NCBI GenBank assembly: GCA_964384995.1
Contig: CAYLMJ010000008.1
Span: 1,158 to 65,157 of the forward strand
Direction of reading: 5' to 3'
Source: an uncultured archaeon
GTDB lineage: Archaea > Thermoplasmatota > Poseidoniia > MGIII > CAYLMJ01
DNA: 64,000 bases
The notes under the pieces: model-generated
Told to the model about the DNA's origin: nothing
What the model saw: only the letters and a program-made list of their open reading frames with translations
Databases searched by the model: none
Program-made: the position numbers and the translations under genes
Shown: piece by piece, positions 25,221 to 45,520 of the stretch
Layout: every line of letters begins with the position of its first letter
Position numbering within the stretch: the stretch's first letter is position 1

Positions 25221-27608
25221 CTAATCCTTCTCGTCCTCTTCGGCCTCGTCCCCTTCCAGGTAGTAGTAGCGGTCCTCGTAACCCGGGTCCAGGGGCAGGG
25301 CCACCTGCAGTTCCAGGGTGTCCAGGTCGTGGACGGTGACGCCGCCGGCGCCGATGGCGTAGATGTAGTCGCCCATGAAGATGGAGCGCCGGATGTTGTA
25401 ACCCCAGCTGTACTCCCAGAGCCGGTCGGTGTCATCGTAGAGGCCTGACTGGTCCACCTCGCCGTAGACCGTGAGGTTCTCGCCGGGCACCGCGTTGATG
25501 AGCATCAGCTTGCTGACGTACTCGTAGTGGTAGCGGTAGTAGCCCCGTTCATCATCGTAGTCGTAGTAGTAGTGATAGGTGGACAGGGGGATGGCCAGCA
25601 GGTCCTTGGGGGCCCAGTACTGGAAGGCCTTGTGCTCGTAGGTGGCCTCGCTGTTGGACCAGGACCACTCCTTGGTACCATCGTCCACCACCGGTGTCAG
25701 GGGCAGGGCGTTCATCAGCTGGGGGTCGGAGAAATCGGTGACATCGAACTGGGATACCTGGGTGATGCGCCAGTCCAGGTTGTCCCCCTCGGCGTTGGGG
25801 CCGATACCGATGGTCAGCAGGTGCTCGTCGCCCATGGGATGGATGTAGGTGGAGACCCCGGGGACCTCCAGCTCGCCCTTGATCTCGGGCTTCAGGGGGT
25901 TGGAGAGGTCGATGGTCCACAGGGGGTCGATGTTGCGGAAGGTGACCAGGTAGGCCTTCTCTCCCACGAAGCGGGAGGACCAGATGCGCTCGCCGATGGC
26001 GATGCCGCTAAGATGTGACATCTGGGCCAGGTAGCCCTCGCCCTCCTGGGTCTCATGCTGGGCCGGGGCCAGGACCCAGATGTGGTTCTCGGGTCCGGTC
26101 TGCTCCTCGGCGTCCAGCCACCAGCGGTTCCATTGACCGGAGGTGGTGGCGATGCGCAAGAAGCCCTGGTACTCGGAGAGGGAGAACTGGTCCAGCACCG
26201 TGCCTTTCACCCGGCCGCTGCCCACGTAGGTCGTGACACCAGGCTCCTTGATGTTGAAGCTGTGGATGTTGGTGGCCTCCTCGTAGGCGTCGTTGCGCCA
26301 GAACCACCACCAGTCCTGGGCCCGCTCGGCGATGAGCAGGGTGTCGGTGGAGGCGTAGACCTCGGCCCAGTTGGACATGATGTGGTCGGCCTCGTAGCCG
26401 AAGGCATCGCCGTAGAGGTCCAGGGTGAAGATGGAGGTGAATCCACGGCTCATGCCGTCCTCGGCGATGACGAAGTCGGAGCACTCGTTGGCCGTGTACT
26501 TGTGGATGTGGAGGTTGCCATCAGGCAGTCTCTCGTAGATCTGGGGCACCAGTTCGTCCAGGGTGTAGCCGGCGATGACCTCCTCGTTGTGGGCTATGGT
26601 GGCGGCGATGCTCTCATTCCAGGCACGGTCGAGCTCGTCCTCTTCCAGCTCCCAGTATCGCTCGGGCATGAATGAATAGGGTGAATAGTAAAGATCGTAG
26701 GTGTCCAGGTAGCCGTAGGTGACCATGCGCACTGTGCCCTCCACTTCCCGGGCCGTCTTGTACCAGCCCTCCATGTAGAGCTCCCGGGCCACCTGGGGAG
26801 TAGTGCGGTCGGTGACATCGATGACGGTGACCTTGGTGAGGGTGGTGGTGCGCCACCAGTACTGCTCATCGTCGCGGACCAGCAGGTCGCGCAGGGGACC
26901 CTCGGGAAGGTTGTAGCCGTAGACCGAGGAGAAGACCACCAGCCAGTCGTTGGCCATGAGCATCTGGGTGGGTGAGCCCTCCAGATCGGTGGTGGATTCG
27001 TGGTTCAGCTGGCCGAACTCGGGTACCCCCAGGATCTCCAGCTTGCGGCCGTTGATCATGTAGATGTAGTAGCCATCGGTCTTGACGAAGTCGGCCTCGT
27101 CCACGCCCTGCTCCTGGTTGTTGGTCCCTGAGTAGTCCTCGCCCTCGACGCGCTTCTCGCCGCCGCCGGCCTGGGGTGCGCCGCCATCCATGGCGTTCTC
27201 CTCAAGGTCACCCCCCAAGAAGACATCGTCATCGCCCCAGCGCCAGTAGCTGTAGCGGGAGGTGCCCACATCGACCAGCATCTCCTCGCGGATGTTCTCC
27301 CTGAGGTCCTCCTCCATCACCGCGCAGGAGTCGTAGCCCCTCAGGTTGGCCGAGCTCATCTGACGTTCGGCCAGCAGGGGGGCGATGATGTCGGCCGGGT
27401 CGTCCGCCGGTCCGAAGTAGGGTCCGTCCTCGTCGGAATCGAGGTAGTACATTACTCCCAGGCTGCTTGCCAGCAGGGTGACCAGCATGCAGGTGGCCAG
27501 CAGTTGGGTGAACTGGGGCCTGGGCCTGGGAACCGGCCAGGGATGTTCAGGGCGCATCGCTCGGGGGGTCTGGAGCGTTTCACCGAATATCTGGATGGGG
27601 TTGGACAT
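25221..27608 (-). CDS. Large membrane-anchored/secreted beta-propeller-domain protein
   Basis: Start at MSNPIQ with GGAGG upstream. N-terminal TM anchor. W/Y/D-rich repeats with an acidic C-terminus. Resembles the Beta_propel (PF09826-like) family, by eye only. Confidence 0.6.
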   Translation of the reverse strand: MSNPIQIFGETLQTPRAMRPEHPWPVPRPRPQFTQLLATCMLVTLLASSLGVMYYLDSDEDGPYFGPADDPADIIAPLLAERQMSSANLRGYDSCAVMEEDLRENIREEMLVDVGTSRYSYWRWGDDDVFLGGDLEENAMDGGAPQAGGGEKRVEGEDYSGTNNQEQGVDEADFVKTDGYYIYMINGRKLEILGVPEFGQLNHESTTDLEGSPTQMLMANDWLVVFSSVYGYNLPEGPLRDLLVRDDEQYWWRTTTLTKVTVIDVTDRTTPQVARELYMEGWYKTAREVEGTVRMVTYGYLDTYDLYYSPYSFMPERYWELEEDELDRAWNESIAATIAHNEEVIAGYTLDELVPQIYERLPDGNLHIHKYTANECSDFVIAEDGMSRGFTSIFTLDLYGDAFGYEADHIMSNWAEVYASTDTLLIAERAQDWWWFWRNDAYEEATNIHSFNIKEPGVTTYVGSGRVKGTVLDQFSLSEYQGFLRIATTSGQWNRWWLDAEEQTGPENHIWVLAPAQHETQEGEGYLAQMSHLSGIAIGERIWSSRFVGEKAYLVTFRNIDPLWTIDLSNPLKPEIKGELEVPGVSTYIHPMGDEHLLTIGIGPNAEGDNLDWRITQVSQFDVTDFSDPQLMNALPLTPVVDDGTKEWSWSNSEATYEHKAFQYWAPKDLLAIPLSTYHYYYDYDDERGYYRYHYEYVSKLMLINAVPGENLTVYGEVDQSGLYDDTDRLWEYSWGYNIRRSIFMGDYIYAIGAGGVTVHDLDTLELQVALPLDPGYEDRYYYLEGDEAEEDEKD

Positions 27609-27702
27609 GGAATGGCCTCCGCCAATGGTCAATTCAGCCCCTGGAACTATATAATAAAATGCCAAAGAATTTTGGAGGTCCGCAGGGGTGTCCAGCCCTA
27701 TA

Positions 27703-27728
27703 TAGCCCAATAGCCCAATTAGCCCAAT
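27703..27728. repeat. Tandem TAGCCCAA(T) x3 upstream of the beta-propeller gene promoter
   Basis: tagcccaa tagcccaat tagcccaat read directly. A TATA-like element (TTTTATTATATAG on the minus strand) lies at about 27644-27658. Confidence 0.8.
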
Positions 27729-28165: not shown

Positions 28166-28311
28166 GGTTGGATTCTACCCAAATGGCGACATTACCATTT
28201 GAAGTTTGCCAATGGACCCCGCGTTCAGCAAGGAAACCGGCCAACCGGCCTCCTGAGCCGCCTCCAATGCCCCCGAACCGCCCCATGAAAGGTTGCAATG
28301 CCGATCCGGCG

Positions 28312-29304
28312 ATGGACTCAAAGGTTAATGAGTGCCCGCCCTTGCCCTGGCTGATGCCCCCGGGCTCCCCCGATGTTGCCGATACTGCTGATGCCACCTA
28401 TCCGACCGAGATTGCCGACCCTGACCCCTCATCCAGCCCCGATTCCGATGCTGATGGTGATATCCATTCTGATGATGAGGCTGAACCCGAACCCGATCAA
28501 GATACTGAAGCAGATGCTGAACCCAAACCCGAAGCAGATGCCGAGGCTGATGCTGGTAGGGAAGCGGACACGGATACACCCTCCCGCGAAGAGAGCCCTG
28601 CACCTCCCGCCAACCTGGGGGAACAGCTGACCCGGGCCTGGCGCAGATTGCCCAAACGGCAGAAGGTCCTTGGGGCCATCTGCCTCTTCAACGGCGTGGT
28701 GGTGGCCATGATCATCGTGGCGCCCCTGATGCTCCCCGCTGATTCGGTGGACTTTGGCGATGAGGGTCTGGTCACCGGCAACGACTTTGCCCAACAGCGG
28801 GAGGCGGCGGGCATGGCCGGCTGGGTGGACTTCATCTACTGGATGGGGGACCTGAACTGCCACCAGAAGCACTCCCGCACCTACGAGCTCAAGGGCAACC
28901 AGATGCCCTTTTGCGTGCGAGACCTGGCCATATTCACCGGCCTGCTGGTGGGGATGCTGCTCTTCTTCCGCCGCTCCCACCCCCTGCCCTTCATCGCCAT
29001 CGTCGCCGGTCTGGTACCCCTGGCCATGGACGGCGGCACCCAGCTTGTGACCTCCTACGAGTCCACCAACAACATGCGCCTGCTCACGGGAATGGTGACC
29101 GGTGTGACCCTGGGAATGGTCATCGCCCACATCGGCACCGACATCTCCTACTCCCGCACCCTGCGCAAGGCCTGGGAGGAGGGCAAGCCCTTTGTCAAGC
29201 CGCCACCTGAGATGCCCCGGCGATACTACCATGTCTTCATCGGAATGATCGTCGCCTCCTGCTGGATGACCGCCCTCAACATCGGCTGGCAGGCCCTGAG
29301 CTGA
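28312..29304 (+). CDS. DUF2085-family membrane protein with acidic low-complexity N-terminus (start uncertain; ORF opens at 28168)
   Basis: Motifs: NCHQKHSRTYELKGNQMPFCVRDLAIFTGLLVG and PLAMDGGTQL. N-terminal E/A/D/P repeat. Confidence 0.6.
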   Translation: MDSKVNECPPLPWLMPPGSPDVADTADATYPTEIADPDPSSSPDSDADGDIHSDDEAEPEPDQDTEADAEPKPEADAEADAGREADTDTPSREESPAPPANLGEQLTRAWRRLPKRQKVLGAICLFNGVVVAMIIVAPLMLPADSVDFGDEGLVTGNDFAQQREAAGMAGWVDFIYWMGDLNCHQKHSRTYELKGNQMPFCVRDLAIFTGLLVGMLLFFRRSHPLPFIAIVAGLVPLAMDGGTQLVTSYESTNNMRLLTGMVTGVTLGMVIAHIGTDISYSRTLRKAWEEGKPFVKPPPEMPRRYYHVFIGMIVASCWMTALNIGWQALS

Positions 29305-29467
29305 GCCCCCATCGGCTCCCTGTCGCCTGGACCCTCCATTGCCCGAGCTCCGATGATCCGGGCCTAACTTTTTATCCCGGCCGGTCTCAACGGTATCATC
29401 CCGGTCCCCGTCCGCTCCGTTTTCCGGAACCTTGACGGCGACCCGACCTTCCCATCAACGTGATCCC

Positions 29468-30049
29468 ATGCACCCTGACAATCCCGCCGGCCTCAAGCCC
29501 GCCGCCTCCCCCAGATCGGCCCTGACGCTCCTGGCATTGGTGGCCTCATGCCTGCTCCTGCTCTCGCTGGGCGCCTCCGCCCGGGCCGAGACCCCCGAGT
29601 TCCTGGACGCCTTCCACGACCCCGATGACCCTGAGAAGAGCGATGATGTGGAGGTGACCCTGCTGATAGACAACGTGGATAACGTGACCGGGGTCGAAAT
29701 GTACGTCTGCTCCATCACCGAGGGGCAGTGCTACGCTCCGGTGGACATGACCAGCTCCGACGACGAGACCTGGGAGGTCTACAACGAGGCCACGCTGAAG
29801 CCGGGCCACACCTACGGCTACAAGTTCATCGTTGAGACCAACGACGGCAACGACACCGAGATACCCGACAAGGACAACCTGGGCGATTACAGCAGCTACG
29901 ACATCGAGGAGCTGTCGGGCACCTACTACTTCGGTTTCGAGATCGAGGCGGAGCCCGAGGACGATGACGACGGTGGTCTACCCGCCCCCGGCCTGCCCCT
30001 GGTCATCGGCGGTCTGGCCCTGGCCCTGGCCCTGCGGCGTCGCCGTTGA
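29468..30049 (+). CDS. Secreted acidic protein with C-terminal LPxxG-TM-RRRR anchor
   Basis: Signal peptide LTLLALVASCLLLLSLGASARA. C-terminal DDDDGGLPAPGLPLVIGGLALALALRRRR. Confidence 0.6.
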   Translation: MHPDNPAGLKPAASPRSALTLLALVASCLLLLSLGASARAETPEFLDAFHDPDDPEKSDDVEVTLLIDNVDNVTGVEMYVCSITEGQCYAPVDMTSSDDETWEVYNEATLKPGHTYGYKFIVETNDGNDTEIPDKDNLGDYSSYDIEELSGTYYFGFEIEAEPEDDDDGGLPAPGLPLVIGGLALALALRRRR

Positions 30050-30095: not shown

Positions 30096-30132
30096 CTTGA
30101 GACGTGCTCTGCTGTTGTGTCGCAGTCTCAAG
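30096..30132. promoter_or_regulatory. 8-bp perfect inverted repeat CTTGAGAC-N21-GTCTCAAG just upstream of a TATA-like ATTTAAAC before copZ
   Basis: Read directly. The TATA-like element is at 30139-30146 and the copZ ATG at 30185. Confidence 0.4.
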
Positions 30133-30184
30133 ACTAGCATTTAAACACCCGGAAGGCCTGCCTGCCATTGACGGAGTAAATAGC

Positions 30185-30412
30185 ATGTTCTCAAAGCAAC
30201 AGGAATTCAAGCTCAAGGTGGGTGGCATGTCCTGCAACCACTGCGTCGGCCGGGTCTCCAAGGCCCTGGAGAGCGTCGAAGGCGTGACCAAGGTCAAGGT
30301 GGACCTGGAGGGTGGCCAGGCCACGGTCAAGGCCAGGGCCGATCAGACCAGCCGGGACGCCCTGATGAACTCGCTGTTGAAGCTGGGCTACCAGGTCAGT
30401 CCCCTGGAGTGA
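30185..30412 (+). CDS. copZ: Heavy-metal-associated (HMA) copper chaperone
   Basis: 75 aa from MFSKQQ. Motif: GMSCNHCVGRVSKAL. Confidence 0.8.
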   Translation: MFSKQQEFKLKVGGMSCNHCVGRVSKALESVEGVTKVKVDLEGGQATVKARADQTSRDALMNSLLKLGYQVSPLE

Positions 30413-30719: not shown

Positions 30720-31070
30720 AATCGAGTGCCGGAAAGCCACCGTTGACACCCTGGTCACCAACAACGGGTCCCGCCCCCTTCCTCAGCCCCGTGACCCCGC
30801 AAGCGTCAGCAGTCCATAGTAAGGCTGCTCCCTTCCGGGCCTGACCCGATCCCTACGGCAAAGGCGGTATACTTGCCCTCCGGCAGGCAGGGACCTCCAC
30901 CTAAAACCAAGCGGGACAGGGCGTCGACGGTCAGAAGCGGATCGTTGAAGGCGCTGGTTGCGCCGCCGGTGGTGTTCGGCCCCTGCTGTAGACGATAGGG
31001 CAAGTCACAGGGCACGCCTAGCTCCCCGGCCTATTCCGGCCCCGCAGCATGACCGCCAGGGGTATTTGGC
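30720..31070 (-). ncRNA. Signal recognition particle (7S) RNA, archaeal type (ends approximate)
   Basis: Minus strand reads GGGUCAGGCCCGGAAGGGAGCAGCC (helix-8 consensus; GGAA loop is the complement of 30833-30836). 45 nt upstream is UGCC-GGAG-GGCA (helix-6 GNAR loop; complement of 30878-30881). The 5' CCCUGGCGGUCA can pair with the 3' UGACCAGGG. TATA-like GATAAAGG lies about 27 nt upstream. Confidence 0.75.
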
Positions 31071-31096: not shown

Positions 31097-31200
31097 TGAA
31101 CGCAGGGGCAGGCAAGCGGGCGGGCAGGCCGGCTTGTGCCAACTTCTTATTTAGGGTCCCCAATCCCTGGCGGTCTTCCCTCCCTCACCGGGTGCCATGC

Positions 31201-33528
31201 ATGACCTACGCCATCCTCATCACCGAAAGCCTGCAGAAGGATTTTGTGGGCCCCCTGGGCCGCTTCGACCCGCTCCCCAACTTTCTCCATGTGGGCCACG
31301 AGGAGGCCCGCCGGCTCATGGGCGAGAACCCGGCCGAGGGTCCCGTCTCCAAGGTCATCGAATGGGCCTACGGTCAGCCCGATAACAAGCTGGCCATCAT
31401 CCACATCCGGGACTGGCATGCCAGCGACGATGAGAGCGATGCCGAGCATATCGAGCGCTTCAAGCCCCACTGCATCGAGAACACCACCGGAGCCCAGTTC
31501 GCCTTCCCCATCTTCGACGAGCATCGCCATGTCGAGATCGTCAATTCCAAGAGCCTGAACGACTTTGTCGGCACCAACCTGGCCCAACTGCTGAAGCCCT
31601 ATCGCGGCCAGAAGGTCAAGGTGGGGCTGATGGGCGTCACCACCGATGCCAAGGTCACCTTCCTGGCCTACGAGCTTCACTCCCGCTACCCCCAGATGGA
31701 GATCGCCGTCTGCCCGGCCATCACCGCCAGCTCCTCCCGGGCCCAGCACTACTTCGCCCTGGAGCAGATGGAGCGTTTCTTCGGCGTCACCATCCTGCCC
31801 TCCATCGGCGAGTTCATCGATTTCCTGAGCAAGGAGGACACCGATTTCACCCTCCCCGCTCCCAAGATCCGCGACCTGCCCGAGCTGACCTTCGAGACCG
31901 AGCACGAGATATCCGACATCGACCGGGGCCTCGTCAGCTACCTCTTCCGCGACTGCTCCAGCGTCGTCCTCTTCGAGCTGTCTGGCGGCTACTCGGGCAA
32001 CATGGTCCTGGCGGCCGAGAGCATCGACCTCAACGGCCATCTGCAGGTGCCCCACGTGGTCAAGGTCGGCCATCACGGCCCCATGGGCCAGGAGCGGATG
32101 GTCTTCGAGCAGATCGAGGCCGTCCTGGGCAACAACGCCCCCCGCATCGTGGACTTCGCCGACTACGGCGACCGCGGCGCCCTCAAGTACCGCTACACGG
32201 CCATGGGCGGCGGCTTCTCCACCACCTTCGACAAGCTCTATCAGTCGGGACTGGAGGACGAGAAGGTCGAGCGCTACCTGCGGGCGGTCTTCCAGGACCA
32301 GCTGGGACGCCTCTACCGGGCGGGGCAGAAGGAGCACATCAACCTGCTGGAGTACTACGGCATCGACCCCGATTACGCCCCCCGGATGCGGGAGAAGGTG
32401 GAGCGGGTCTACGGTGCCCCTGCCGAGGGCAAGGTGCTTACCCTGCCCACCGGCCAGGAGTTCCCCAATCCCTGCGTCTTCTACGAGAAGCATTTAAAGG
32501 AGCTCTATCCCAAGGCCGACAAACCCACCTACCTGTCATTCATCCATGGCGACCTCAACGGCGCCAACATAATCATCGACGATTTCGAGAACGTCTGGAT
32601 CATCGACTTCTTCAGCACCCACCGCGGCCACATCCTGCGGGACTTCATCAAGCTGGAGAACGACCTGCTCTACATCTACACCCCGGTGAAGAACGAGGAG
32701 GACCTGCGGGAGGCCACCAAGCTCACCGACATACTGCTGGGCGTGCAGGACCTGAGCCGCATGCTGCCCCCGGTGGAGGAGACGGGACTGACCAACCCCG
32801 AGATGATCCGCACCTACAAGACCATCAGCCTGCTCCGCTCCATGTACGAGATCCTCATCCACGAGGACCGCAACACCCTGCAGATGCTGGTGGGTCAGCT
32901 GCGCTATGCCGGACACACCTTCTCCTTCTTCGAGGCTGATGAATGGCAGAAGAAATGGGCCCTCTACACCACGGGTCGCATCAGCCACATCCTGACCAAG
33001 CGACTGCGGGACCGGGGCCCCCTGCGCATCGAACTGGTCAAGGGGAAGTACGTTTTGCCCGGTCGGCTGGGGATCACCCTCCTGCCTGGACGCAAGGATT
33101 ACAACCGCAAGATCAGGGAGGACATGGCCACCATGCGGAACAAGGGGGTGACCCACGTGGTGACCCTCATCATGGGCGACGAGTTCGCCCAGTACGGTGT
33201 GGATGATCTGCTGGAGAATTACCGGGAGGGCGGTTTCACGGTCCGTCATTTCCCCATCAAGGACCAGCGCATCCCCACCGTGCGTCATGTCATGGAGCTG
33301 ATGGAGTGGATGGACGATATCATCCAGCAGGGCAACACCATCCTGGTCCACTGCGTGGGAGGCCTGGGCCGGGCGGGCCTGGTGGCGGCCTGCTACCTCA
33401 TCTACCGGGGTCAGACCCCCGAGGACGCCATCGCCGAGGTGCGGCGGGTCCGCTCCGCCAGGGCTGTCGAGACCAAGGTCCAGGAGGAGTTCGTCTACCA
33501 GTTCGCCAGGGAGCTCAAGGCTCGATAA
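31201..33528 (+). CDS. Three-domain fusion: isochorismatase/nicotinamidase-like (Cys to Lys) + APH/protein-kinase-like + dual-specificity phosphatase (HCX5R)
   Basis: Start at MTYAILITE. N-terminal motifs: LQKDF, IRDWH, KPHCIENTTGAQF, VNSKSLNDF, and GVTTDAKV. Middle: LSGGYSGNMV, VVKVG, and FIHGDLNGANIIIDDFENVWIIDF. C-terminal: VHCVGGLGRAGLVAACYL. Confidence 0.7.
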   Translation: MTYAILITESLQKDFVGPLGRFDPLPNFLHVGHEEARRLMGENPAEGPVSKVIEWAYGQPDNKLAIIHIRDWHASDDESDAEHIERFKPHCIENTTGAQFAFPIFDEHRHVEIVNSKSLNDFVGTNLAQLLKPYRGQKVKVGLMGVTTDAKVTFLAYELHSRYPQMEIAVCPAITASSSRAQHYFALEQMERFFGVTILPSIGEFIDFLSKEDTDFTLPAPKIRDLPELTFETEHEISDIDRGLVSYLFRDCSSVVLFELSGGYSGNMVLAAESIDLNGHLQVPHVVKVGHHGPMGQERMVFEQIEAVLGNNAPRIVDFADYGDRGALKYRYTAMGGGFSTTFDKLYQSGLEDEKVERYLRAVFQDQLGRLYRAGQKEHINLLEYYGIDPDYAPRMREKVERVYGAPAEGKVLTLPTGQEFPNPCVFYEKHLKELYPKADKPTYLSFIHGDLNGANIIIDDFENVWIIDFFSTHRGHILRDFIKLENDLLYIYTPVKNEEDLREATKLTDILLGVQDLSRMLPPVEETGLTNPEMIRTYKTISLLRSMYEILIHEDRNTLQMLVGQLRYAGHTFSFFEADEWQKKWALYTTGRISHILTKRLRDRGPLRIELVKGKYVLPGRLGITLLPGRKDYNRKIREDMATMRNKGVTHVVTLIMGDEFAQYGVDDLLENYREGGFTVRHFPIKDQRIPTVRHVMELMEWMDDIIQQGNTILVHCVGGLGRAGLVAACYLIYRGQTPEDAIAEVRRVRSARAVETKVQEEFVYQFARELKAR

Positions 33529-35338: not shown

Positions 35339-36082
35339 ATGACCGGTCCCGAGACCCTTGGCGCTCTGACGCCCGACCAGAAGAGGGAGCTGCCCACCCT
35401 CTACCTGCGATTGGTCCTCATCCACCACAGCCTCTGGTTCACCGAGACCCAGAAGCGCCTGGGTCTGGAGGCCGCCCTGGAGGCCGAGTCCCAGGCCTGG
35501 CGGCGTCTCCATCCCCGGGTCCGGAAGCGGATGACCCCCCATCTGCGTGCGGCCCTGCAGTCAAAGGACGATATCGAGGCGGATCCCTACCTATCCGACG
35601 AACGGCTGGAAGCCCTGTGTGTGGACCTGGCCAAGACCTGGCTGGCCATGGACGGGGTGTGGTTCCAGGCCGTTGAGAGCATGCAGGACATGGAGACCGC
35701 CATGGCCTGCAACGAGGCCTCCTGGCACAGCTTCGCCTTTGCCGAGGCCCGCCGCCTCCGTGACCTCCTGGACCTGGGACCCAACAGCGGACTGGACGGC
35801 CTGGCCCGGGCCCTGGACCATCGCCTCTACGCCTGGCTCAATCGCCAGAGCTGTCACCCGGTGGATGACCGGACCCTGGATTTCGAGATGAACGAGTGCC
35901 GGGTCCAGACGGCCCGGGAGCGACGGGGCTTGCCCGATTACCCCTGCAAGCAGGCCGGACTCATCGAATACACCCGCTTTGCCCAGGGACTCGACGACCG
36001 GCTCACCACCGAGTGTCTGGGCTGTCCTCCCGACCCCCACCCGAAGGACTGGTACTGCAGGTGGCGCTTCAGCCTTGAATGA
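35339..36082 (+). CDS. Hypothetical protein with Cys-rich C-terminus
   Basis: 247 aa with GC3-rich codons. Contains WLAMDGVWFQAVE and C-terminal C...C...CLGC...C cysteines. Family not recognised with confidence. Confidence 0.5.
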   Translation: MTGPETLGALTPDQKRELPTLYLRLVLIHHSLWFTETQKRLGLEAALEAESQAWRRLHPRVRKRMTPHLRAALQSKDDIEADPYLSDERLEALCVDLAKTWLAMDGVWFQAVESMQDMETAMACNEASWHSFAFAEARRLRDLLDLGPNSGLDGLARALDHRLYAWLNRQSCHPVDDRTLDFEMNECRVQTARERRGLPDYPCKQAGLIEYTRFAQGLDDRLTTECLGCPPDPHPKDWYCRWRFSLE

Positions 36083-36159
36083 AAGCCACATCGGTCCCTT
36101 CGACCCACCCCTCCAACCAATCCTTTAAAAGCCTCAGCACCCTCAACGCTCGAACAGCC

Positions 36160-36936
36160 ATGGTATCGGTCAACATCGAAGAGTGGGAGATGCTCGACTG
36201 CAAGGACGCGGTGATCATCGACGGCTTCCCCAGCGTGGGCGCCGTATCGACCATCGTCGCCTCCTACATCATCGACGCCCTGGGCTTGAAACAGGTGGGT
36301 GTCGTTGAGAGCGAGCTGGTGCCTCCGGTGGCCATCATCAAGGAGGGTCAGCCCCTGTCGCCCATTCGCATCTACGCCTCCCCCACCCGCGAGGGCGAGG
36401 ACCCCCAGTCCACCGAACGGACGGTGGTGGTCTTCATCTCCGAGTTCCCCCTCCTGGCCGAGATGGTCCGACCCATGGCCGAGGCCATGGTCAAGTGGGG
36501 TCTCAGCCGCGGATGCAGTCTGCTAATCTCTCCCGAGGGCGTGGGCAACCAGAACGGCGACGGTCCCGTGGAGAATGGCGATCGGGAGGTGGAGGCCTTC
36601 GGCGTGGCCTCGACGCCCCGGGCTCGCGAGCTGATGAAGGAGACCGATTGTCAGGGCTTCCGCTATGGCACCATCACCGGTGTCACCGGTGTGCTCCTGG
36701 GACTGGGTCGTCAGCACTCGTTCGATGTCATCGCCATGCTGGCCGAATCCCGGGAGGACATGCCCGACGCCCGCGCCGCGGCCAAGCTCATCGAGTGCAT
36801 CAACCCCCTGCTCTCCAAGGTCAACATCGTTCCCGGCCCATTGCTGGATGAGGCCTCCCGCATCGAAGACTCCATTCCCAAGGTCATGACCATTGGCCAG
36901 GTGGTGGAGGAGGACGAGGTCCCGCTGTACGGCTGA
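36160..36936 (+). CDS. PAC2-family proteasome-assembly chaperone (PbaA/PbaB-like) with C-terminal HbYX (LYG)
   Basis: Start at MVSVNIEEW, with TTTAAAA about 33 nt upstream. Motif: IIDGFPSVGAVSTIVASYIID. Protein ends ...EDEVPLYG. Confidence 0.7.
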   Translation: MVSVNIEEWEMLDCKDAVIIDGFPSVGAVSTIVASYIIDALGLKQVGVVESELVPPVAIIKEGQPLSPIRIYASPTREGEDPQSTERTVVVFISEFPLLAEMVRPMAEAMVKWGLSRGCSLLISPEGVGNQNGDGPVENGDREVEAFGVASTPRARELMKETDCQGFRYGTITGVTGVLLGLGRQHSFDVIAMLAESREDMPDARAAAKLIECINPLLSKVNIVPGPLLDEASRIEDSIPKVMTIGQVVEEDEVPLYG

Positions 36937-43192: not shown

Positions 43193-45520
43193 TCAGGACT
43201 TGGAAATGTAGGCTCCGATCACAGCCTGACCCAGGGCGATGCCGCCGTCGTTGGGCGGTACCCGCTGATGGGTGTAGACCGCGAATCCCTCCTCATTGAG
43301 CCGTGTGACCGTCCGCTCCAGCAGGTAGCGGTTCTGAAAACAGCCTCCCGATAGCACCACGTTGTGTTCATCGATATGCTGGGCGGCGCTCACGATGCCC
43401 TCCACCAGGCCATTGTGGAAGCGGGCCGCTATCTTGGCCGGTTCGACCCCCTTGCCCAGGTCGTTCCTGACGTGTTCCACCATCCGCCACCATTCCAGCT
43501 GGAACCTGGCCTTCCGCCTGCTGGGAGAGATCGGCATGGGATAGGCCCACTGTTTGGCCGCCTCACTGGCCGGCGGCAGGATGAACTCCAGGGCCATGGC
43601 CGCCTGTCCCTCAAAGGCATTCTTCCGCTTTAGTCCCAGCAGAGCCGATACCCCATCGAATAGACGACCCGCGCTGGTGGTCACCGGGGCGTTGTAACCC
43701 TTTTCCAGCATCGCCGTGAGGGTGGCCAGTTCCGAGGCACCAAAGCCCAGGGCTTCAGTTCCCCCTTCGGCCTCGATATCCATCTCATGGAGCAGGGCCA
43801 GCGCCGATCGCCGGGGCTCCCTGGCCGCCATGTCGCCTCCCGGCAGACGGAAGGGTTGCAGGTGACCCACTCGCTCGAAACCGGTGGGGTCTCCCAGCAG
43901 GAACTCACCGCCCCACACCGTGCCATCGGGACCGTAGCCGGTGCCGTCCCAGGAGACTCCCAGCACCGGGCCGGTCAGGTCGTTCTCGGCCATGGCCGAG
44001 GCGATGTGGGCCTCGTGATGCTGGACCTTGATCAAGGTCAGGCCACGTTGGGTTGCAAGCTCCCGGGCAAAGCGGGAGCAGAGATGATCGGGATGCAGGT
44101 CGCAGGCCACCAGCCCGGGCTCGAACTCCAGCAGTTCGCTCAGGTCCTGGATGACCCGCTCGAAGGCGTTGTAGGCCTCGGTGGTGGCCAGGTCCCCGAT
44201 ATGCTGGGAGAGGAAGACCCGGCCGCCGGTGGCAAGGGCCACGCTGTTCTTCAGGTGGGCTCCCACCGCCAGGACCTCGCTGTTGGCCAGGGTGTCGGCC
44301 AAGAGGCCGGGACTGAAGGTCAGGGGCAGGGGAGCGTAACCGCGGGCCCGGCGGAGTACCAGCTCCCGTCCGTTGACGAAGCGCACGATGGAGTCATCCA
44401 CATGGCGCAGGATGGGCCTGTCGTGGACCAGGAACACATCGGCGATGCTTCCCAGCCGTTCCAGGGCCTCCCGCTCCCCGATGGCCATGGGTTCCTCCGA
44501 CAGGTTGCCCGAGGTGGCCACCACCGGGTAGCCCAGCTCGGTCATGAGCAGGTGATGCAGGGGGGTGTATGGCAGCATGACCCCCAGGTAGGGATTGCCC
44601 GGTGCCACATTGGGCGCCAGGCCCTCATGTTGGGCCCTCCTTCGCAAAAGAACGATGGGGCTCTCCGGGGCCTGGAGCGAGCGGGCCTCATCCACCGAGA
44701 CCCGGCAGGCCTCCTTCACACCCTTCATGTCAGGGAACATCAACGCCAGGGGCTTCTCCTCGCGATGCTTGCGCTCCCGCAGTCGTGCCACCGCCCTCTC
44801 ATCCCGCGCGTCCACCAGCAGTTGGTAGCCGCCAAGTCCCTTGAGGGCCACGATCCTGCCCTGGCCGATGGCGGTGGCAGCCTCCTCCAGGGCCTCCTCT
44901 CTCCGTGCCAGTACCTCACCCTGTTCATCCCATAGCTCCAACCGGGGTCCACAGGCCGGGCAGGCGTTGGGCTGGGCATGGAACCGGCGGTCCTCGGGAT
45001 TTTTATACTCATCGTCGCAAACAGGACATAACTTGAAACCAGCCATGGTGGTCATGGGCCGGTCGTATGGCAGACCCGAGATGATGGAGTAGCGGGGACC
45101 GCAGTTGGTGCAGTTGGTGAAGGGATAGCCACAGCGCCGGTTGCCCCTTTCGAGGATGTCGGAGCGGCAGTCGGCACAGGTGGCCACATCGGGCAGGACC
45201 AGCACCGTGGGCGCCCCTTCCCCCGCACTCTCTTCGATCCTGAATTCGGTGAAACCCACCGCGTCAAGCCATGAGGCCTCCAGGCTCAGGATGACGGCCA
45301 AGGGCGGCCTTTCGGCCTCCAGGCGGGACAGGAGATCCCGCAGCCGTTCGACCGGTCCTTCCACCTCGATCTGGACCCCGGAGGCGTCGTTGATGACCCA
45401 GCCGGCGAGGTCAAGCTCGGTGGCCAGACGGTAGACGAAGGGTCGAAAGCCGACACCCTGGACGGCCCCGTGGATGATGACCCTCAGCCGGTGTCCATGA
45501 CCTTCCTCGGGACCCATCAT
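43193..45520 (-). CDS. hypF: Carbamoyltransferase HypF
   Basis: Acylphosphatase domain (VQGVGFRPFVYRLA). Two CxxC-x18-CxxC zinc fingers. YrdC-like and Kae1-like domains. Confidence 0.9.
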   Translation of the reverse strand: MMGPEEGHGHRLRVIIHGAVQGVGFRPFVYRLATELDLAGWVINDASGVQIEVEGPVERLRDLLSRLEAERPPLAVILSLEASWLDAVGFTEFRIEESAGEGAPTVLVLPDVATCADCRSDILERGNRRCGYPFTNCTNCGPRYSIISGLPYDRPMTTMAGFKLCPVCDDEYKNPEDRRFHAQPNACPACGPRLELWDEQGEVLARREEALEEAATAIGQGRIVALKGLGGYQLLVDARDERAVARLRERKHREEKPLALMFPDMKGVKEACRVSVDEARSLQAPESPIVLLRRRAQHEGLAPNVAPGNPYLGVMLPYTPLHHLLMTELGYPVVATSGNLSEEPMAIGEREALERLGSIADVFLVHDRPILRHVDDSIVRFVNGRELVLRRARGYAPLPLTFSPGLLADTLANSEVLAVGAHLKNSVALATGGRVFLSQHIGDLATTEAYNAFERVIQDLSELLEFEPGLVACDLHPDHLCSRFARELATQRGLTLIKVQHHEAHIASAMAENDLTGPVLGVSWDGTGYGPDGTVWGGEFLLGDPTGFERVGHLQPFRLPGGDMAAREPRRSALALLHEMDIEAEGGTEALGFGASELATLTAMLEKGYNAPVTTSAGRLFDGVSALLGLKRKNAFEGQAAMALEFILPPASEAAKQWAYPMPISPSRRKARFQLEWWRMVEHVRNDLGKGVEPAKIAARFHNGLVEGIVSAAQHIDEHNVVLSGGCFQNRYLLERTVTRLNEEGFAVYTHQRVPPNDGGIALGQAVIGAYISKS

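What the first reader, a model, noticed from the sequence alone, without database searches (positions are those of the whole stretch)
31201..33528. 775-aa fusion of a nucleophile-less nicotinamidase-like domain, a kinase-like domain and an HCX5R phosphatase
Seen in sequence: the N-terminal domain follows the isochorismatase/PncA pattern (LQKDF, IRDWH, KPHCIENTTGAQF, VNSKSLNDF). However, the canonical TD-x-C-V nucleophile reads TDAKV (Lys codon at 31651-31653). The middle region has APH/eukaryote-like-kinase hallmarks: the Gly-rich LSGGYSGN, VVKVG, and HGDLNGANIIID plus IIDF (32545-32610). The C-terminal domain has a dual-specificity or CDKN3-like phosphatase P-loop, VHCVGGLGRAG (33346-33378). 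Established knowledge: isochorismatase-fold hydrolases use an Asp-Lys-Cys triad, so this domain is probably a ligand sensor for a nicotinamide- or NAD-derived molecule rather than an enzyme. Inference: this is a self-contained sensor plus opposing kinase and phosphatase switch. I do not recognise this architecture.
Basis: partly seen in the sequence, partly recalled or inferred. Interest (0 to 1): 0.7.

Follow-up and report, generated by a model that had tools for sequence, protein, structure and literature searches.

The report
Remodelled nicotinamidase–kinase–phosphatase fusion protein
An uncultured archaeon encodes a real 775-residue protein that joins a nicotinamidase-like domain with all three usual catalytic residues replaced, an intact kinase and an intact phosphatase; it belongs to a widespread family that nobody has studied experimentally, so it is a good uncharacterised target but not a one-off oddity.

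Summary
ORF 31201-33528(+) encodes an N-terminal nicotinamidase-fold domain, a TCAD9/APH-type kinase-like domain and a KAP/CDKN3-like Cys phosphatase. All quoted motifs and codon coordinates are correct.

All three canonical triad positions are replaced: Asp to Ser10 (Cys in most relatives), Lys to Ser116, and Cys to Lys151 (invariant). The nicotinamidase metal ligands D71/H73/H90 are kept. Kinase and phosphatase catalytic residues are invariant across the family.

The architecture is not unique. More than 1,000 protein clusters and at least 293 species genomes carry it (bacteria, archaea, some amoebae). They have only generic names, and I found no experimental study.

The conserved core is the Lys-variant domain plus the kinase; the phosphatase is an accessory. 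There is no universal gene partner. About 10% of loci sit beside a MoxR-type block, and none of that block is in this window.

Best reading, at moderate confidence: a ligand-recognising pseudo-nicotinamidase coupled to an opposing kinase and phosphatase, possibly acting on an NAD-related molecule. Function remains untested.

The parts
31148..31155 (+). TATA-like box (TTATTTAG) 46-53 bp upstream of the ATG, in the 159-bp spacer shared divergently with the SRP RNA gene
   Evidence: Read directly from the sequence. Its function as a promoter element is inferred, not tested.
31201..33528 (+). Complete CDS, 775 codons plus stop; apparently monocistronic (SRP RNA divergent upstream, methyltransferase gene convergent downstream)
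   Evidence: The same synteny is seen around the 86%-identical orthologue P0002.
31201..31845 (+). N-terminal nicotinamidase-fold (isochorismatase-like) domain, aa 1-215, Lys-variant clade
   Evidence: Pfam PF00857 1.4e-6. Profile against PDB: 3s2s 1.5e-7. Domain model pLDDT 90.8, pTM 0.90. Foldseek: PncA 5zn8 9.5e-12, TMq 0.69, TMt 0.81.
31228..31230 (+). Ser10 codon, at the position of the canonical catalytic Asp (Cys in 101/121 relatives, Ser in 14, Gly in 4)
31411..31470 (+). Stretch holding the retained nicotinamidase metal ligands D71 (31411-31413), H73 (31417-31419) and H90 (31468-31470)
   Evidence: RDWH aligns with RDWHPEN and PHC with PRHCV of P. horikoshii PncA. Conservation is 111/121, 111/121 and 120/121.
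31546..31548 (+). Ser116 codon, at the position of the canonical catalytic Lys (S/A/T/G across the family)
   Evidence: HMM alignments to 3s2s and 3hb7; conservation counts.
31651..31653 (+). Lys151 codon, at the position of the canonical catalytic Cys; invariant in the family
31846..33015 (+). TCAD9/APH-type protein-kinase-like domain, aa 216-605. Gly-rich loop 262-267, K288 (32062-32064), E298/E303, catalytic loop H449-N456 (32545-32568), D469 (32605-32607)
   Evidence: Pfam TCAD9 2.3e-56, APH 5e-4. All catalytic residues are 121/121. Foldseek APH(3')-IIIa 2.8e-6, Rv3168 3.2e-6. No significant sequence match to any solved kinase (best RIO2, E=0.014).
33016..33525 (+). KAP/CDKN3-like Cys-dependent dual-specificity phosphatase domain, aa 606-775. 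P-loop H717-R724 (33349-33372); candidate general acid D688 (33262-33264)
   Evidence: Pfam CDKN3 2e-19, Tc-R-P 1e-18, PTP-SAK 1.5e-14, DSPc 2.3e-9, PTP-NADK 6.3e-9. PDB profile 1fpz 1.4e-29. Foldseek 1fpz 2.3e-11, TMt 0.88. H717/C718/R724 are 121/121; D688 is 112/121.

Best explanation
The gene encodes a member of a widespread, experimentally uncharacterised enzyme family. Its constant core is a remodelled nicotinamidase-fold domain fused directly to a TCAD9/APH-type kinase. In this subfamily a KAP-like cysteine phosphatase is added at the C-terminus.

The N-domain keeps the nicotinamidase metal and pyridine-binding pocket but has lost the Asp-Lys-Cys triad, so it cannot carry out the classical thioester amidase reaction. 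I infer that it serves as the recognition or regulatory module for a pyridine-type ligand (nicotinamide, nicotinate or an NAD-derived nucleotide). The Lys at the old Cys position is well placed to contact a carboxylate or carboxamide.

The kinase transfers phosphate from ATP and the phosphatase removes it. Together they would set the phosphorylation level of one target. I favour a small NAD-related molecule held by the N-domain over a protein, but only slightly.

Shown: the three folds, the triad replacement, retention of the metal ligands, invariance of the kinase and phosphatase catalytic residues, purifying selection on all domains, and the obligate pairing of N-domain and kinase. Inferred: ligand binding, ligand identity, that kinase and phosphatase share a target, and the nature of that target.
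For: **Folds and motifs.**

**Triad fully replaced, metal ligands kept.**

**A small, distinct clade.** The Lys-variant domain matches only 513 of 1.84 billion representatives. The old Cys position is never Cys in the top 150.

**Almost always next to a kinase.** It precedes TCAD9 with the phosphatase (about 770 aa) or without it (about 610 aa; P0152 is a complete 624-aa gene with no PTP nearby). It also occurs with extra HD, CH or rubrerythrin domains, and once C-terminal to a Hanks-type Pkinase, the usual position of a sensor domain.

**Kinase and phosphatase look active.** K288, E298/E303, H449-G-D451, N456, D469, H717, C718 and R724 are invariant in 121 proteins and 80 genomic loci.

**All domains are maintained.** dN/dS against the 86% orthologue is 0.16 (N-domain), 0.08 (kinase) and 0.23 (phosphatase).

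**Hints of a small-molecule, NAD-related target.**
- The kinase is APH/choline-kinase-like. Kaur et al. [quoted passage not shown]
- The phosphatase also hits Pfam PTP-NADK and PTP-SAK.
- A related PTP domain is fused to an ADP-ribosylglycohydrolase.
- NadR-like NMN adenylyltransferase/ribosylnicotinamide kinase genes flank 4 of 80 loci (TIGR01526 5.7e-43).

**Precedent.** A kinase/phosphatase fusion acting on a pyridine nucleotide exists: M. jannaschii NADP phosphatase/NAD kinase (PMC4518329).
Against: - There is no direct evidence for any ligand or substrate.
- The pocket is conserved as strongly as a catalytic site. A Cys/Ser alternates at position 10 next to the invariant Lys, which is what a relocated nucleophile would look like.
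- Four Bacteroidota loci have lost two metal ligands while keeping everything else, so the metal site is not essential to the family's common function.
- The best phosphatase relatives (KAP, SsoPTP, Tk-PTP) are protein phosphatases.
- The commonest neighbours are protein-signalling genes: response regulators, STAS, SpoIIE-HATPase and cNMP-binding proteins.
- The NAD hints are each weak. NadR appears in only 4 of 80 loci, and the PTP-NADK hit is the weakest of five overlapping phosphatase models.
Confidence: 0.35

Rival explanations
1. Protein-directed signalling switch, essentially the first reader's model. The N-domain is an allosteric sensor. The kinase phosphorylates itself or a partner protein, and the KAP-like phosphatase resets it, as KAP resets CDK2.
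For: - The closest relative of the phosphatase is KAP/CDKN3, followed by archaeal protein tyrosine phosphatases.
- The kinase catalytic loop aligns best with RIO2 protein kinase/ATPase.
- Neighbours are enriched for signalling proteins. STAS lies directly upstream on the same strand in 7 Bacteroidota loci, with SpoIIE-HATPase_c_2. Response regulators flank 6 loci, and cNMP-binding channels 4.
- The same Lys-variant domain is fused behind a Hanks-type Pkinase in P0188.
Against: - Overall the kinase is APH/choline-kinase-like. After the DFG-like Asp it has the short segment typical of small-molecule kinases (read from the sequence; Pfam).
- No protein partner is conserved across phyla: the maximum is 10 of 80 loci.
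- In this window there is no signalling partner at all.
- A whole subfamily lacks the phosphatase, and none is encoded nearby.
Confidence: 0.3
2. Three-activity pathway enzyme. The N-domain is still a hydrolase but uses a relocated nucleophile (Cys or Ser at position 10, activated by Lys151, assisted by the metal). It acts in sequence with the kinase and phosphatase on one metabolite.
For: - Position 10 is Cys in 101/121 members and Ser in 14. It sits at the old catalytic-Asp position, which in nicotinamidases is adjacent to the nucleophile (established structural knowledge).
- K151 is invariant, and the metal ligands are 92-99% conserved.
- Pocket conservation is at catalytic-site level, with dN/dS 0.16.
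- Some neighbours are metabolic: ALDH in 3-4 loci, FAA hydrolase, and a PaaK-like ligase.
Against: - Position 10 is Gly in 4 family members, and other residues occur in distant members.
- Position 116 varies freely between S, A, T and G.
- The metal ligands are lost in 4 otherwise intact Bacteroidota proteins.
- No known isochorismatase-fold enzyme uses such a triad, to my knowledge.
Confidence: 0.2
3. Component or effector of a vWA-MoxR type 'ternary' conflict (immunity) system, as the Pfam name TCAD9 implies.
For: - Pfam names the kinase 'Ternary complex associated domain 9'. Another paper glosses TCAD9 as 'associated with vWA-MoxR-VMAP' (PMC10910872).
- 10 of 80 loci from six phyla place the gene next to a rearranging block: MoxR (AAA_3), an unknown protein, a putative vWA protein, another unknown, a PaaK-like ligase and sometimes a radical SAM enzyme.
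- AAA_3 is the commonest direct neighbour, in 8 loci; bpMoxR is in 3.
Against: - None of these partners exists in the 64-kb window (tblastn found 0 hits).
- About 88% of loci lack them.
- There is no PADLOC hit for the protein or the partners, apart from a weak viperin-like radical SAM match.
- There are no phage hits and no full-length plasmid hit.
- The window neighbours are housekeeping genes (SRP RNA, HMA, methyltransferase, PAC2, aminotransferases, HypF), and synteny is stable in the orthologue.
- The 'vWA' label on the partner is weak (Pfam VWA E=0.32).
Confidence: 0.1

Closest known systems
Nicotinamidase/pyrazinamidase PncA (isochorismatase-like hydrolase superfamily, PF00857), e.g. 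P. horikoshii 1ilw, S. mutans 3s2s, B. subtilis 5zn8, S. pneumoniae 3o90
   Same: - Same fold (Foldseek E about 1e-11, TMt about 0.8).
- Same N-terminal xQxDF motif.
- Same RDWH...PHC metal-ligand motifs, and the same GVxT(D/E)x-[C]-V helix start.
   Different: - All three catalytic positions are replaced: Asp to Cys/Ser, Lys to Ser/Ala, Cys to Lys.
- A roughly 30-residue insertion follows the first strand (residues 16-48).
- It is never found alone with a canonical triad, but is fused to a kinase.
- The clade is tiny and distinct: 513 of 1.84 billion representatives.
TCAD9 (PF19974) / aminoglycoside-choline-kinase-type (APH, PF01636) protein-kinase-like domains
   Same: - Scores far above the TCAD9 gathering cut-off (192 bits against 40).
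- Brenner-type HGDxxxxN catalytic loop, DFG-like Asp, and beta3 Lys with helix-C Glu are all invariant.
- Structural matches to APH(3')-IIIa and Rv3168.
   Different: - In this window it is not associated with any vWA-MoxR-VMAP system.
- It has no significant sequence match to any solved kinase.
- It is preceded by an obligate nicotinamidase-like domain, which I did not find described in Kaur et al. 2020 (0 occurrences of 'isochorismatase' or 'nicotinamidase' in the main text and in the one supplementary file held as text).
KAP/CDKN3 (PF05706) and archaeal or small dual-specificity phosphatases (SsoPTP, Tk-PTP, VHZ/DUSP23)
   Same: HCX5R P-loop, a candidate general-acid Asp, and the same fold (1fpz: 31% identity, TMt 0.88).
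   Different: It is covalently fused to a kinase-like domain and does not act in trans. It also hits the Pfam models PTP-SAK and PTP-NADK, and a relative is fused to an ADP-ribosylglycohydrolase, so the substrate may not be a protein.
Bifunctional kinase/phosphatase 'set-point' enzymes, e.g. M. jannaschii MJ0917 NADP phosphatase/NAD kinase (PMC4518329) and PFK-2/FBPase-2 (own knowledge)
   Same: The logic is the same: opposing kinase and phosphatase activities in one polypeptide that could fix the level of a phosphorylated metabolite.
   Different: There is no homology. Here the kinase is APH-like and the phosphatase is a Cys-PTP, not NADK plus IMPase or PFK-2 plus a His-phosphatase (no such Pfam hits). 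A shared substrate is unproven.

Membership tests
Isochorismatase-like hydrolases / nicotinamidase PncA (PF00857) | Isochorismatase-like alpha/beta fold | tested here: met
   Pfam 29 bits against a cut-off of 27. Profile against PDB: 3s2s 1.5e-7. Foldseek PncA 9.5e-12, TMq 0.69, TMt 0.81.
Isochorismatase-like hydrolases / nicotinamidase PncA (PF00857) | Asp-Lys-Cys catalytic triad | tested here: not met
   Asp aligns to S10 (C in 101/121), Lys to S116 (S/A/T/G), Cys to K151 (121/121). The register of the Asp rests on a P. horikoshii PncA sequence recalled from memory; 106 of its 180 residues were verified against the output.
Isochorismatase-like hydrolases / nicotinamidase PncA (PF00857) | Nicotinamidase metal site (Asp-x-His plus the His of PxHC) | tested here: met
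   D71, H73 and H90 align with RDWH and PRHC of 1ilw. Conservation is 111, 111 and 120 of 121. Actual metal binding was not tested.
Isochorismatase-like hydrolases / nicotinamidase PncA (PF00857) | Amidase activity on nicotinamide or pyrazinamide | not testable with these tools
   Requires an enzyme assay.
TCAD9 (PF19974) / protein-kinase-like fold | Profile match above the curated threshold | tested here: met
   192.3 bits against a cut-off of 40, E 2.3e-56.
TCAD9 (PF19974) / protein-kinase-like fold | Complete set of kinase catalytic residues (Gly-rich loop, beta3 Lys, helix-C Glu, HxD...N loop, DFG-like Asp) | tested here: met
   G262, G263, S265, G266, K288, E298/E303, H449, D451, N456 and D469 are invariant in 121 sequences and 80 loci. 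The catalytic loop aligns with RIO2 IHGDFNEFN...IDF.
TCAD9 (PF19974) / protein-kinase-like fold | Genomic association with a vWA-MoxR(-VMAP) ternary system | tested here: not met
   0 tblastn hits for any partner in the 64-kb window. The association is present in only about 10 of 80 related loci.
CDKN3/KAP-like dual-specificity phosphatases (PF05706, PTP superfamily) | HCX5R phosphate-binding loop with the catalytic Cys and Arg | tested here: met
   VHCVGGLGRAG at 716-726. H717, C718 and R724 are 121/121.
CDKN3/KAP-like dual-specificity phosphatases (PF05706, PTP superfamily) | PTP/DSP fold, closest to KAP | tested here: met
   Pfam CDKN3 70.4 bits against a cut-off of 20.7. 1fpz 1.4e-29. Foldseek TMt 0.88, rmsd 2.1.
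CDKN3/KAP-like dual-specificity phosphatases (PF05706, PTP superfamily) | General-acid Asp on the loop preceding the P-loop | tested here: inconclusive
   D688 (PIxDQ) is Asp in 112/121 and Asn in 9. Its equivalence to the KAP general acid was not checked residue by residue.
Bifunctional metabolite kinase/phosphatases (MJ0917 NADP phosphatase/NAD kinase type) | Homologous NADK and IMPase-type domains | tested here: not met
   No such Pfam or NCBIfam hits. This is an analogy only.
Bifunctional metabolite kinase/phosphatases (MJ0917 NADP phosphatase/NAD kinase type) | Kinase and phosphatase act on the same small molecule | not testable with these tools
   Requires biochemistry.
Known anti-phage defence systems (PADLOC-DB) | Match to a defence-system protein model, or carriage on mobile elements | tested here: not met
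   0 PADLOC families. No phage hit. One partial plasmid hit, to the PTP domain only.

The most novel reading that the evidence does not exclude
The family is an unrecognised enzyme of pyridine-nucleotide metabolism or signalling. The nicotinamidase-derived domain holds the nicotinamide or nicotinate end of an NAD-related molecule (NR, NMN, NAD(H), ADP-ribose or a derivative). An APH-type kinase phosphorylates a ribose hydroxyl and the Cys-phosphatase removes the phosphate. This would be a non-NADK kinase/phosphatase pair that sets the level of a phosphorylated NAD-derived metabolite. One possibility is an alternative NAD(H) kinase/NADP(H) phosphatase. No dedicated NADP phosphatase had been isolated as of the 2015 review (PMC4518329).
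Probability: 0.12. Interest if true: 0.8.

Novelty: new variant of a known kind. Interest (0 to 1): 0.5.

Why it matters
If the reading holds, this is a compact single-polypeptide device found in bacteria, archaea and some amoebae. It would couple recognition of a pyridine-type metabolite to reversible phosphorylation.

It would add three things:
- A clear natural example of an enzyme fold (nicotinamidase) turned into a kinase-coupled module by swapping all three catalytic residues while keeping the ligand pocket.
- A first functional handle on the TCAD9 kinase family, for which I found no experimental study and no solved structure with significant sequence similarity (best PDB E = 0.014).
- Possibly a missing activity in NAD/NADP homeostasis or NAD-derived signalling.

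The family is highly conserved (about 50-60% identity across phyla, 115 near-invariant residues) and occurs in culturable Leptospira and Flavobacteriaceae, so it can be tested directly. If it turns out to be an ordinary regulatory kinase, the value is more modest: correcting hundreds of misleading 'isochorismatase family protein' or 'nicotinamidase-related amidase' annotations.

Tried and rejected
1. **D14 as the catalytic Asp.** This was my first assumption. Motif register and a MAFFT alignment with PncA sequences show the catalytic Asp maps to position 10.
2. **A Ser116-Lys151 catalytic dyad.** Rejected because position 116 varies freely between S, A, T, G and C.
3. **The second 775-aa ORF (43193-45520, -) as a paralogue.** It is HypF, so the equal length is a coincidence.
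4. **The longer ORF from TTG 30958.** It overlaps the archaeal SRP RNA gene.
5. **Partner genes in the window.** tblastn with all recurrent neighbours (MoxR, putative vWA, ligase, radical SAM, NadR, ALDH, STAS, SpoIIE) found 0 hits.
6. **PADLOC on the protein and its partners.** Nothing meaningful.
7. **Literature.** Searches for TCAD9, the architecture and DSP-PTPase found no description of this fusion. The one supplementary file of Kaur et al. 2020 held as text does not contain TCAD or isochorismatase.
8. **A 41-residue N-terminal query against PDB to fix the Asp register.** No useful hit.
9. **A kinase-only profile against PDB.** No significant relative.
10. **Pocket and interface geometry.** Model coordinates are not exposed to the script environment, so these could not be analysed.
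11. **The 'vWA' label for the 603-aa partner.** Only weakly supported (Pfam VWA E=0.32), so it is reported as putative.
12. **Loss of metal ligands tracking the STAS context.** Only partly: 3 of the 4 loci that lost the ligands have STAS, but other STAS loci keep them.


Full report
**1. Observation**

Window 31201-33528 (+) is an uninterrupted 775-codon ORF.

The longer ORF starting at TTG 30958 is not real. It overlaps a full-length archaeal SRP RNA gene at 30727-31041 (-) (Rfam RF01857, 168.5 bits), and homologues start at the same Met-x-x-(A/S)-I-L-I-T. A TATA-like TTATTTAG lies 46-53 bp upstream of the ATG.

The host is therefore an archaeon. The HypF gene in the window is 74% identical to one from an 'uncultured archaeon' MAG.

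**2. Domain identities**

- **Profile searches.** Pfam gives TCAD9 (PF19974, 2.3e-56), CDKN3 (2e-19, with overlapping Tc-R-P, PTP-SAK, DSPc and PTP-NADK hits) and Isochorismatase (1.4e-6, just above the curated cut-off).
- **Solved structures by sequence.** A 57-sequence family profile hits KAP/CDKN3 1fpz at 1.4e-29. An N-domain-only profile hits nicotinamidase 3s2s at 1.5e-7.
- **Structure models.** The AlphaFold2 model of the whole protein is confident (pLDDT 88.9, pTM 0.73), as is the N-domain alone (pLDDT 90.8, pTM 0.90).
- **Fold comparison.** Foldseek against PDB finds KAP (TMt 0.88), nicotinamidases from four species (TMt about 0.8; TMq 0.69 for the isolated domain) and APH(3')-IIIa/Rv3168 for the middle domain.
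- **The kinase is remote.** The kinase domain has no significant sequence relative among solved structures. The best hit is RIO2 at E=0.014, over the catalytic loop only.

**3. The N-domain active site is remodelled more deeply than reported**

HMM alignments place K151 exactly on the catalytic Cys of 3s2s (GVLTDICV), 3hb7 (GVWTNVCV) and 1ilw (GVATEYCV). They place S116 on the catalytic Lys of 3s2s and 3hb7. So the Cys is not merely shifted.

I added P. horikoshii and M. tuberculosis PncA to the family alignment. I recalled these sequences from memory; for the P. horikoshii sequence, 106 of its 180 residues were verified against tool output. In that alignment the catalytic Asp of V-D-x-Q-x-D-F falls on position 10, not on D14.

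Position 10 is Cys in 101/121 relatives, Ser in 14 (including this protein) and Gly in 4. The triad Asp/Lys/Cys has therefore become Cys(Ser)/Ser(Ala,Thr,Gly)/Lys.

The nicotinamidase metal ligands are retained: D71 in 111/121, H73 in 111/121 and H90 in 120/121. Also invariant or nearly so are R70, W55, H68, H83, D121, F122, Y157, C171, S179 and H183.

**4. The family**

- **Size.** A search of 5.8 billion proteins gave 1,157 hits at E<=1e-5. The top 120 are all full length (769-791 aa, or about 937-960 aa with an N-terminal rubrerythrin/ferritin-like domain) at >=49% identity. Source names are only generic: 'isochorismatase family protein', 'phosphotransferase', 'dual specificity protein phosphatase family protein', 'protein-tyrosine phosphatase/nicotinamidase-related amidase'.
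- **Spread.** At least 293 GTDB species genomes encode it. They include Chloroflexota, Acidobacteriota, Verrucomicrobiota, Bacteroidota, Pseudomonadota, Myxococcota, Sericytochromatia, Planctomycetota, Elusimicrobiota, Leptospira spp., Thermoplasmata and Bathyarchaeota.
- **Conservation.** 115 positions are invariant or nearly so. These include every kinase and phosphatase catalytic residue.
- **The N-domain clade.** Searching 1.84 billion cluster representatives with the N-domain profile gave only 513 hits. In the top 150 the old-Cys position is almost always Lys and never Cys.
- **Architectures.** The domain is nearly always immediately N-terminal to TCAD9, with the phosphatase or without it. 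P0152 from Planctomycetota is a complete 624-aa gene with no PTP gene nearby. Variants add HD or CH domains, and in one case the domain follows a Hanks-type Pkinase.
- **Eukaryotes.** Members occur in amoebozoan transcriptomes (Luapelamoeba, intact signature) and in Naegleria gruberi (XP_002681824.1, degenerate signature). Contamination of the transcriptomes cannot be excluded.
- **This lineage.** The N-domain here is more diverged than most (C10S, Q80D, G88K, W147T, S172P and others). All three domains are nevertheless under purifying selection against the 86%-identical orthologue: dN/dS 0.16, 0.08 and 0.23.

**5. Genomic context**

In the window the gene appears to stand alone, between the divergent SRP RNA and a convergent methyltransferase gene. 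The surrounding genes are housekeeping: beta-propeller, DUF2085, HMA, DUF6125, PAC2, aminotransferases and HypF. The same synteny holds for the orthologue.

Across 80 loci no neighbour is universal; the maximum is 10 of 80.

- **MoxR-type block.** Ten loci from six phyla carry, in varying order and orientation, this block: MoxR-type AAA_3 ATPase, an unknown 335-aa protein, a putative vWA protein (weak, E=0.32), an unknown 216-aa protein, a PaaK/DVU1553-like AMP ligase and sometimes a radical SAM enzyme. Four of them also have a NadR-like NMN adenylyltransferase/ribosylnicotinamide kinase.
- **Bacteroidota.** Seven loci have a STAS protein directly upstream, five of them also with a SpoIIE-HATPase_c_2 protein.
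- **Nearest-neighbour census.** Among the nearest genes on each side, MoxR (8) and signalling proteins dominate: response regulators (6), STAS (4), cNMP-binding channels (4) and cyclases (3).
- **This window.** None of these partners is present.
- **Mobile elements.** There is no PADLOC hit and no phage hit. The only plasmid hit is partial: a related PTP domain fused to an ADP-ribosylglycohydrolase in Leisingera.

**6. Interpretation**

These points are shown:
- three folds;
- a fully replaced triad with a retained metal pocket;
- intact kinase and phosphatase catalytic machinery;
- an obligate pairing of N-domain and kinase;
- an accessory phosphatase;
- purifying selection on all domains;
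- no fixed partner.

My best inference (confidence 0.35 for the full statement, about 0.55 for its target-agnostic core) is this. The N-domain is a non-amidase ligand-recognition module for a pyridine-type compound. The kinase and phosphatase antagonistically set the phosphorylation state of one target.

I slightly favour a small NAD-related molecule as the target, for four reasons:
- the kinase is APH/choline-kinase-like;
- the phosphatase hits the PTP-NADK and PTP-SAK models;
- a related PTP domain is fused to an ADP-ribosylglycohydrolase;
- NadR-like genes are neighbours in 4 loci.

A precedent exists in the M. jannaschii NADP phosphatase/NAD kinase fusion (PMC4518329).

The rivals are:
- a protein-directed switch (0.3), backed by KAP similarity, signalling neighbours and the Pkinase fusion;
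- a still-catalytic N-domain with a relocated Cys/Ser nucleophile (0.2);
- a vWA-MoxR conflict-system component (0.1), which fits only about 10% of loci and not this window.

**7. Comparison with the known, and novelty**

The protein fails membership of functional nicotinamidases because the triad is not met. It meets the tested fold and motif criteria for TCAD9/APH-like kinases and for KAP-like phosphatases.

It is a member of an existing, automatically annotated but experimentally uncharacterised family.

I found no paper that describes the fusion or the triad replacement. Kaur et al. [quoted passage not shown]

I rate it a new variant of a known kind, with interest 0.5. It is a well-conserved, testable unknown with an unusual active-site rearrangement, but it is neither rare nor mechanistically established.

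Noticed in passing
window 30727-31041 (-): Full-length archaeal signal recognition particle RNA (RF01857, 168.5 bits). It shows the window is archaeal and fills the apparently empty stretch upstream of the gene.
   Followed up: partly
window 30104-30412 (+): Small HMA/CopZ-like heavy-metal-associated protein (Pfam HMA 3.2e-15, GMSCNHC motif). It is conserved in the same position in the orthologous contig L126.
   Followed up: partly
window 29432-30049 (+): 205-aa acidic protein that looks secreted (signal-like N-terminus, C-terminal hydrophobic segment followed by RRRR, read by eye). It has only a weak CBM_48 hit (E=0.048); it may be an archaeal surface-anchored protein.
   Followed up: no
window 43193-45520 (-): HypF carbamoyltransferase (hydrogenase maturation), by coincidence also exactly 775 aa. 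It is 74% identical to a MAG labelled 'uncultured archaeon' from study SRP077602.
   Followed up: partly
window 25221-27710 (-), 28168-29304 (+), 35339-36936 (+): Other neighbours: a large Beta_propel (PF09826) protein, a DUF2085 membrane protein, DUF6125 and a PAC2-family protein. These are housekeeping or unknown genes, with no defence or signalling genes near the finding.
   Followed up: no
L023:590-8696, L029:12339-20659, L041:12526-17934, L050:12417-20773 and six other loci: A conserved, apparently undescribed gene block found in six bacterial phyla next to the family. It comprises a MoxR-type AAA_3 ATPase, an unknown 335-aa protein, a roughly 600-aa protein with an HExxH-like N-terminus and a MIDAS-like DCSGS motif (Pfam VWA only E=0.32), an unknown 216-aa protein, a PaaK/DVU1553-like AMP ligase, and sometimes a MoaA/viperin-like radical SAM enzyme.
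   Followed up: partly
L005, L008, L011, L012, L014, L016, L038 (Bacteroidota): A STAS anti-sigma-antagonist-like gene lies directly upstream on the same strand. A SpoIIE (PP2C)-HATPase_c_2 fusion is found in five of these loci and a cNMP-binding ion channel in four. This is a partner-switching context specific to this phylum. Three of these loci (L005, L008, L038), plus L017, have lost metal ligands D71/H73.
   Followed up: partly
L129:3977-5545 (Leisingera thetidis plasmid pBMJM1_5, WP_264214654.1): A KAP-like PTP domain (36% identical to residues 607-770) is fused to an ADP-ribosylglycohydrolase. The gene lies in an island with AAA ATPase, WYL, PD-(D/E)XK nuclease and UvrD genes, which looks like a defence island.
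   Followed up: no
P0160 (Luapelamoeba hula), P0156 (Flabellula baltica), P0219/P0271 (Naegleria gruberi XP_002681824.1): Eukaryotic (amoeboid) proteins carry the Lys-variant domain plus TCAD9. The Naegleria protein (1,412 aa) has a degenerate signature (K151 replaced by T). Contamination of the transcriptome-derived entries cannot be excluded.
   Followed up: no
P0051, P0064, P0069, P0075, P0079, P0082, P0101: A subfamily of about 937-960 aa adds an N-terminal rubrerythrin/ferritin-like domain (PF02915, PF13668) to the three-domain core. This hints at a redox or iron input.
   Followed up: no
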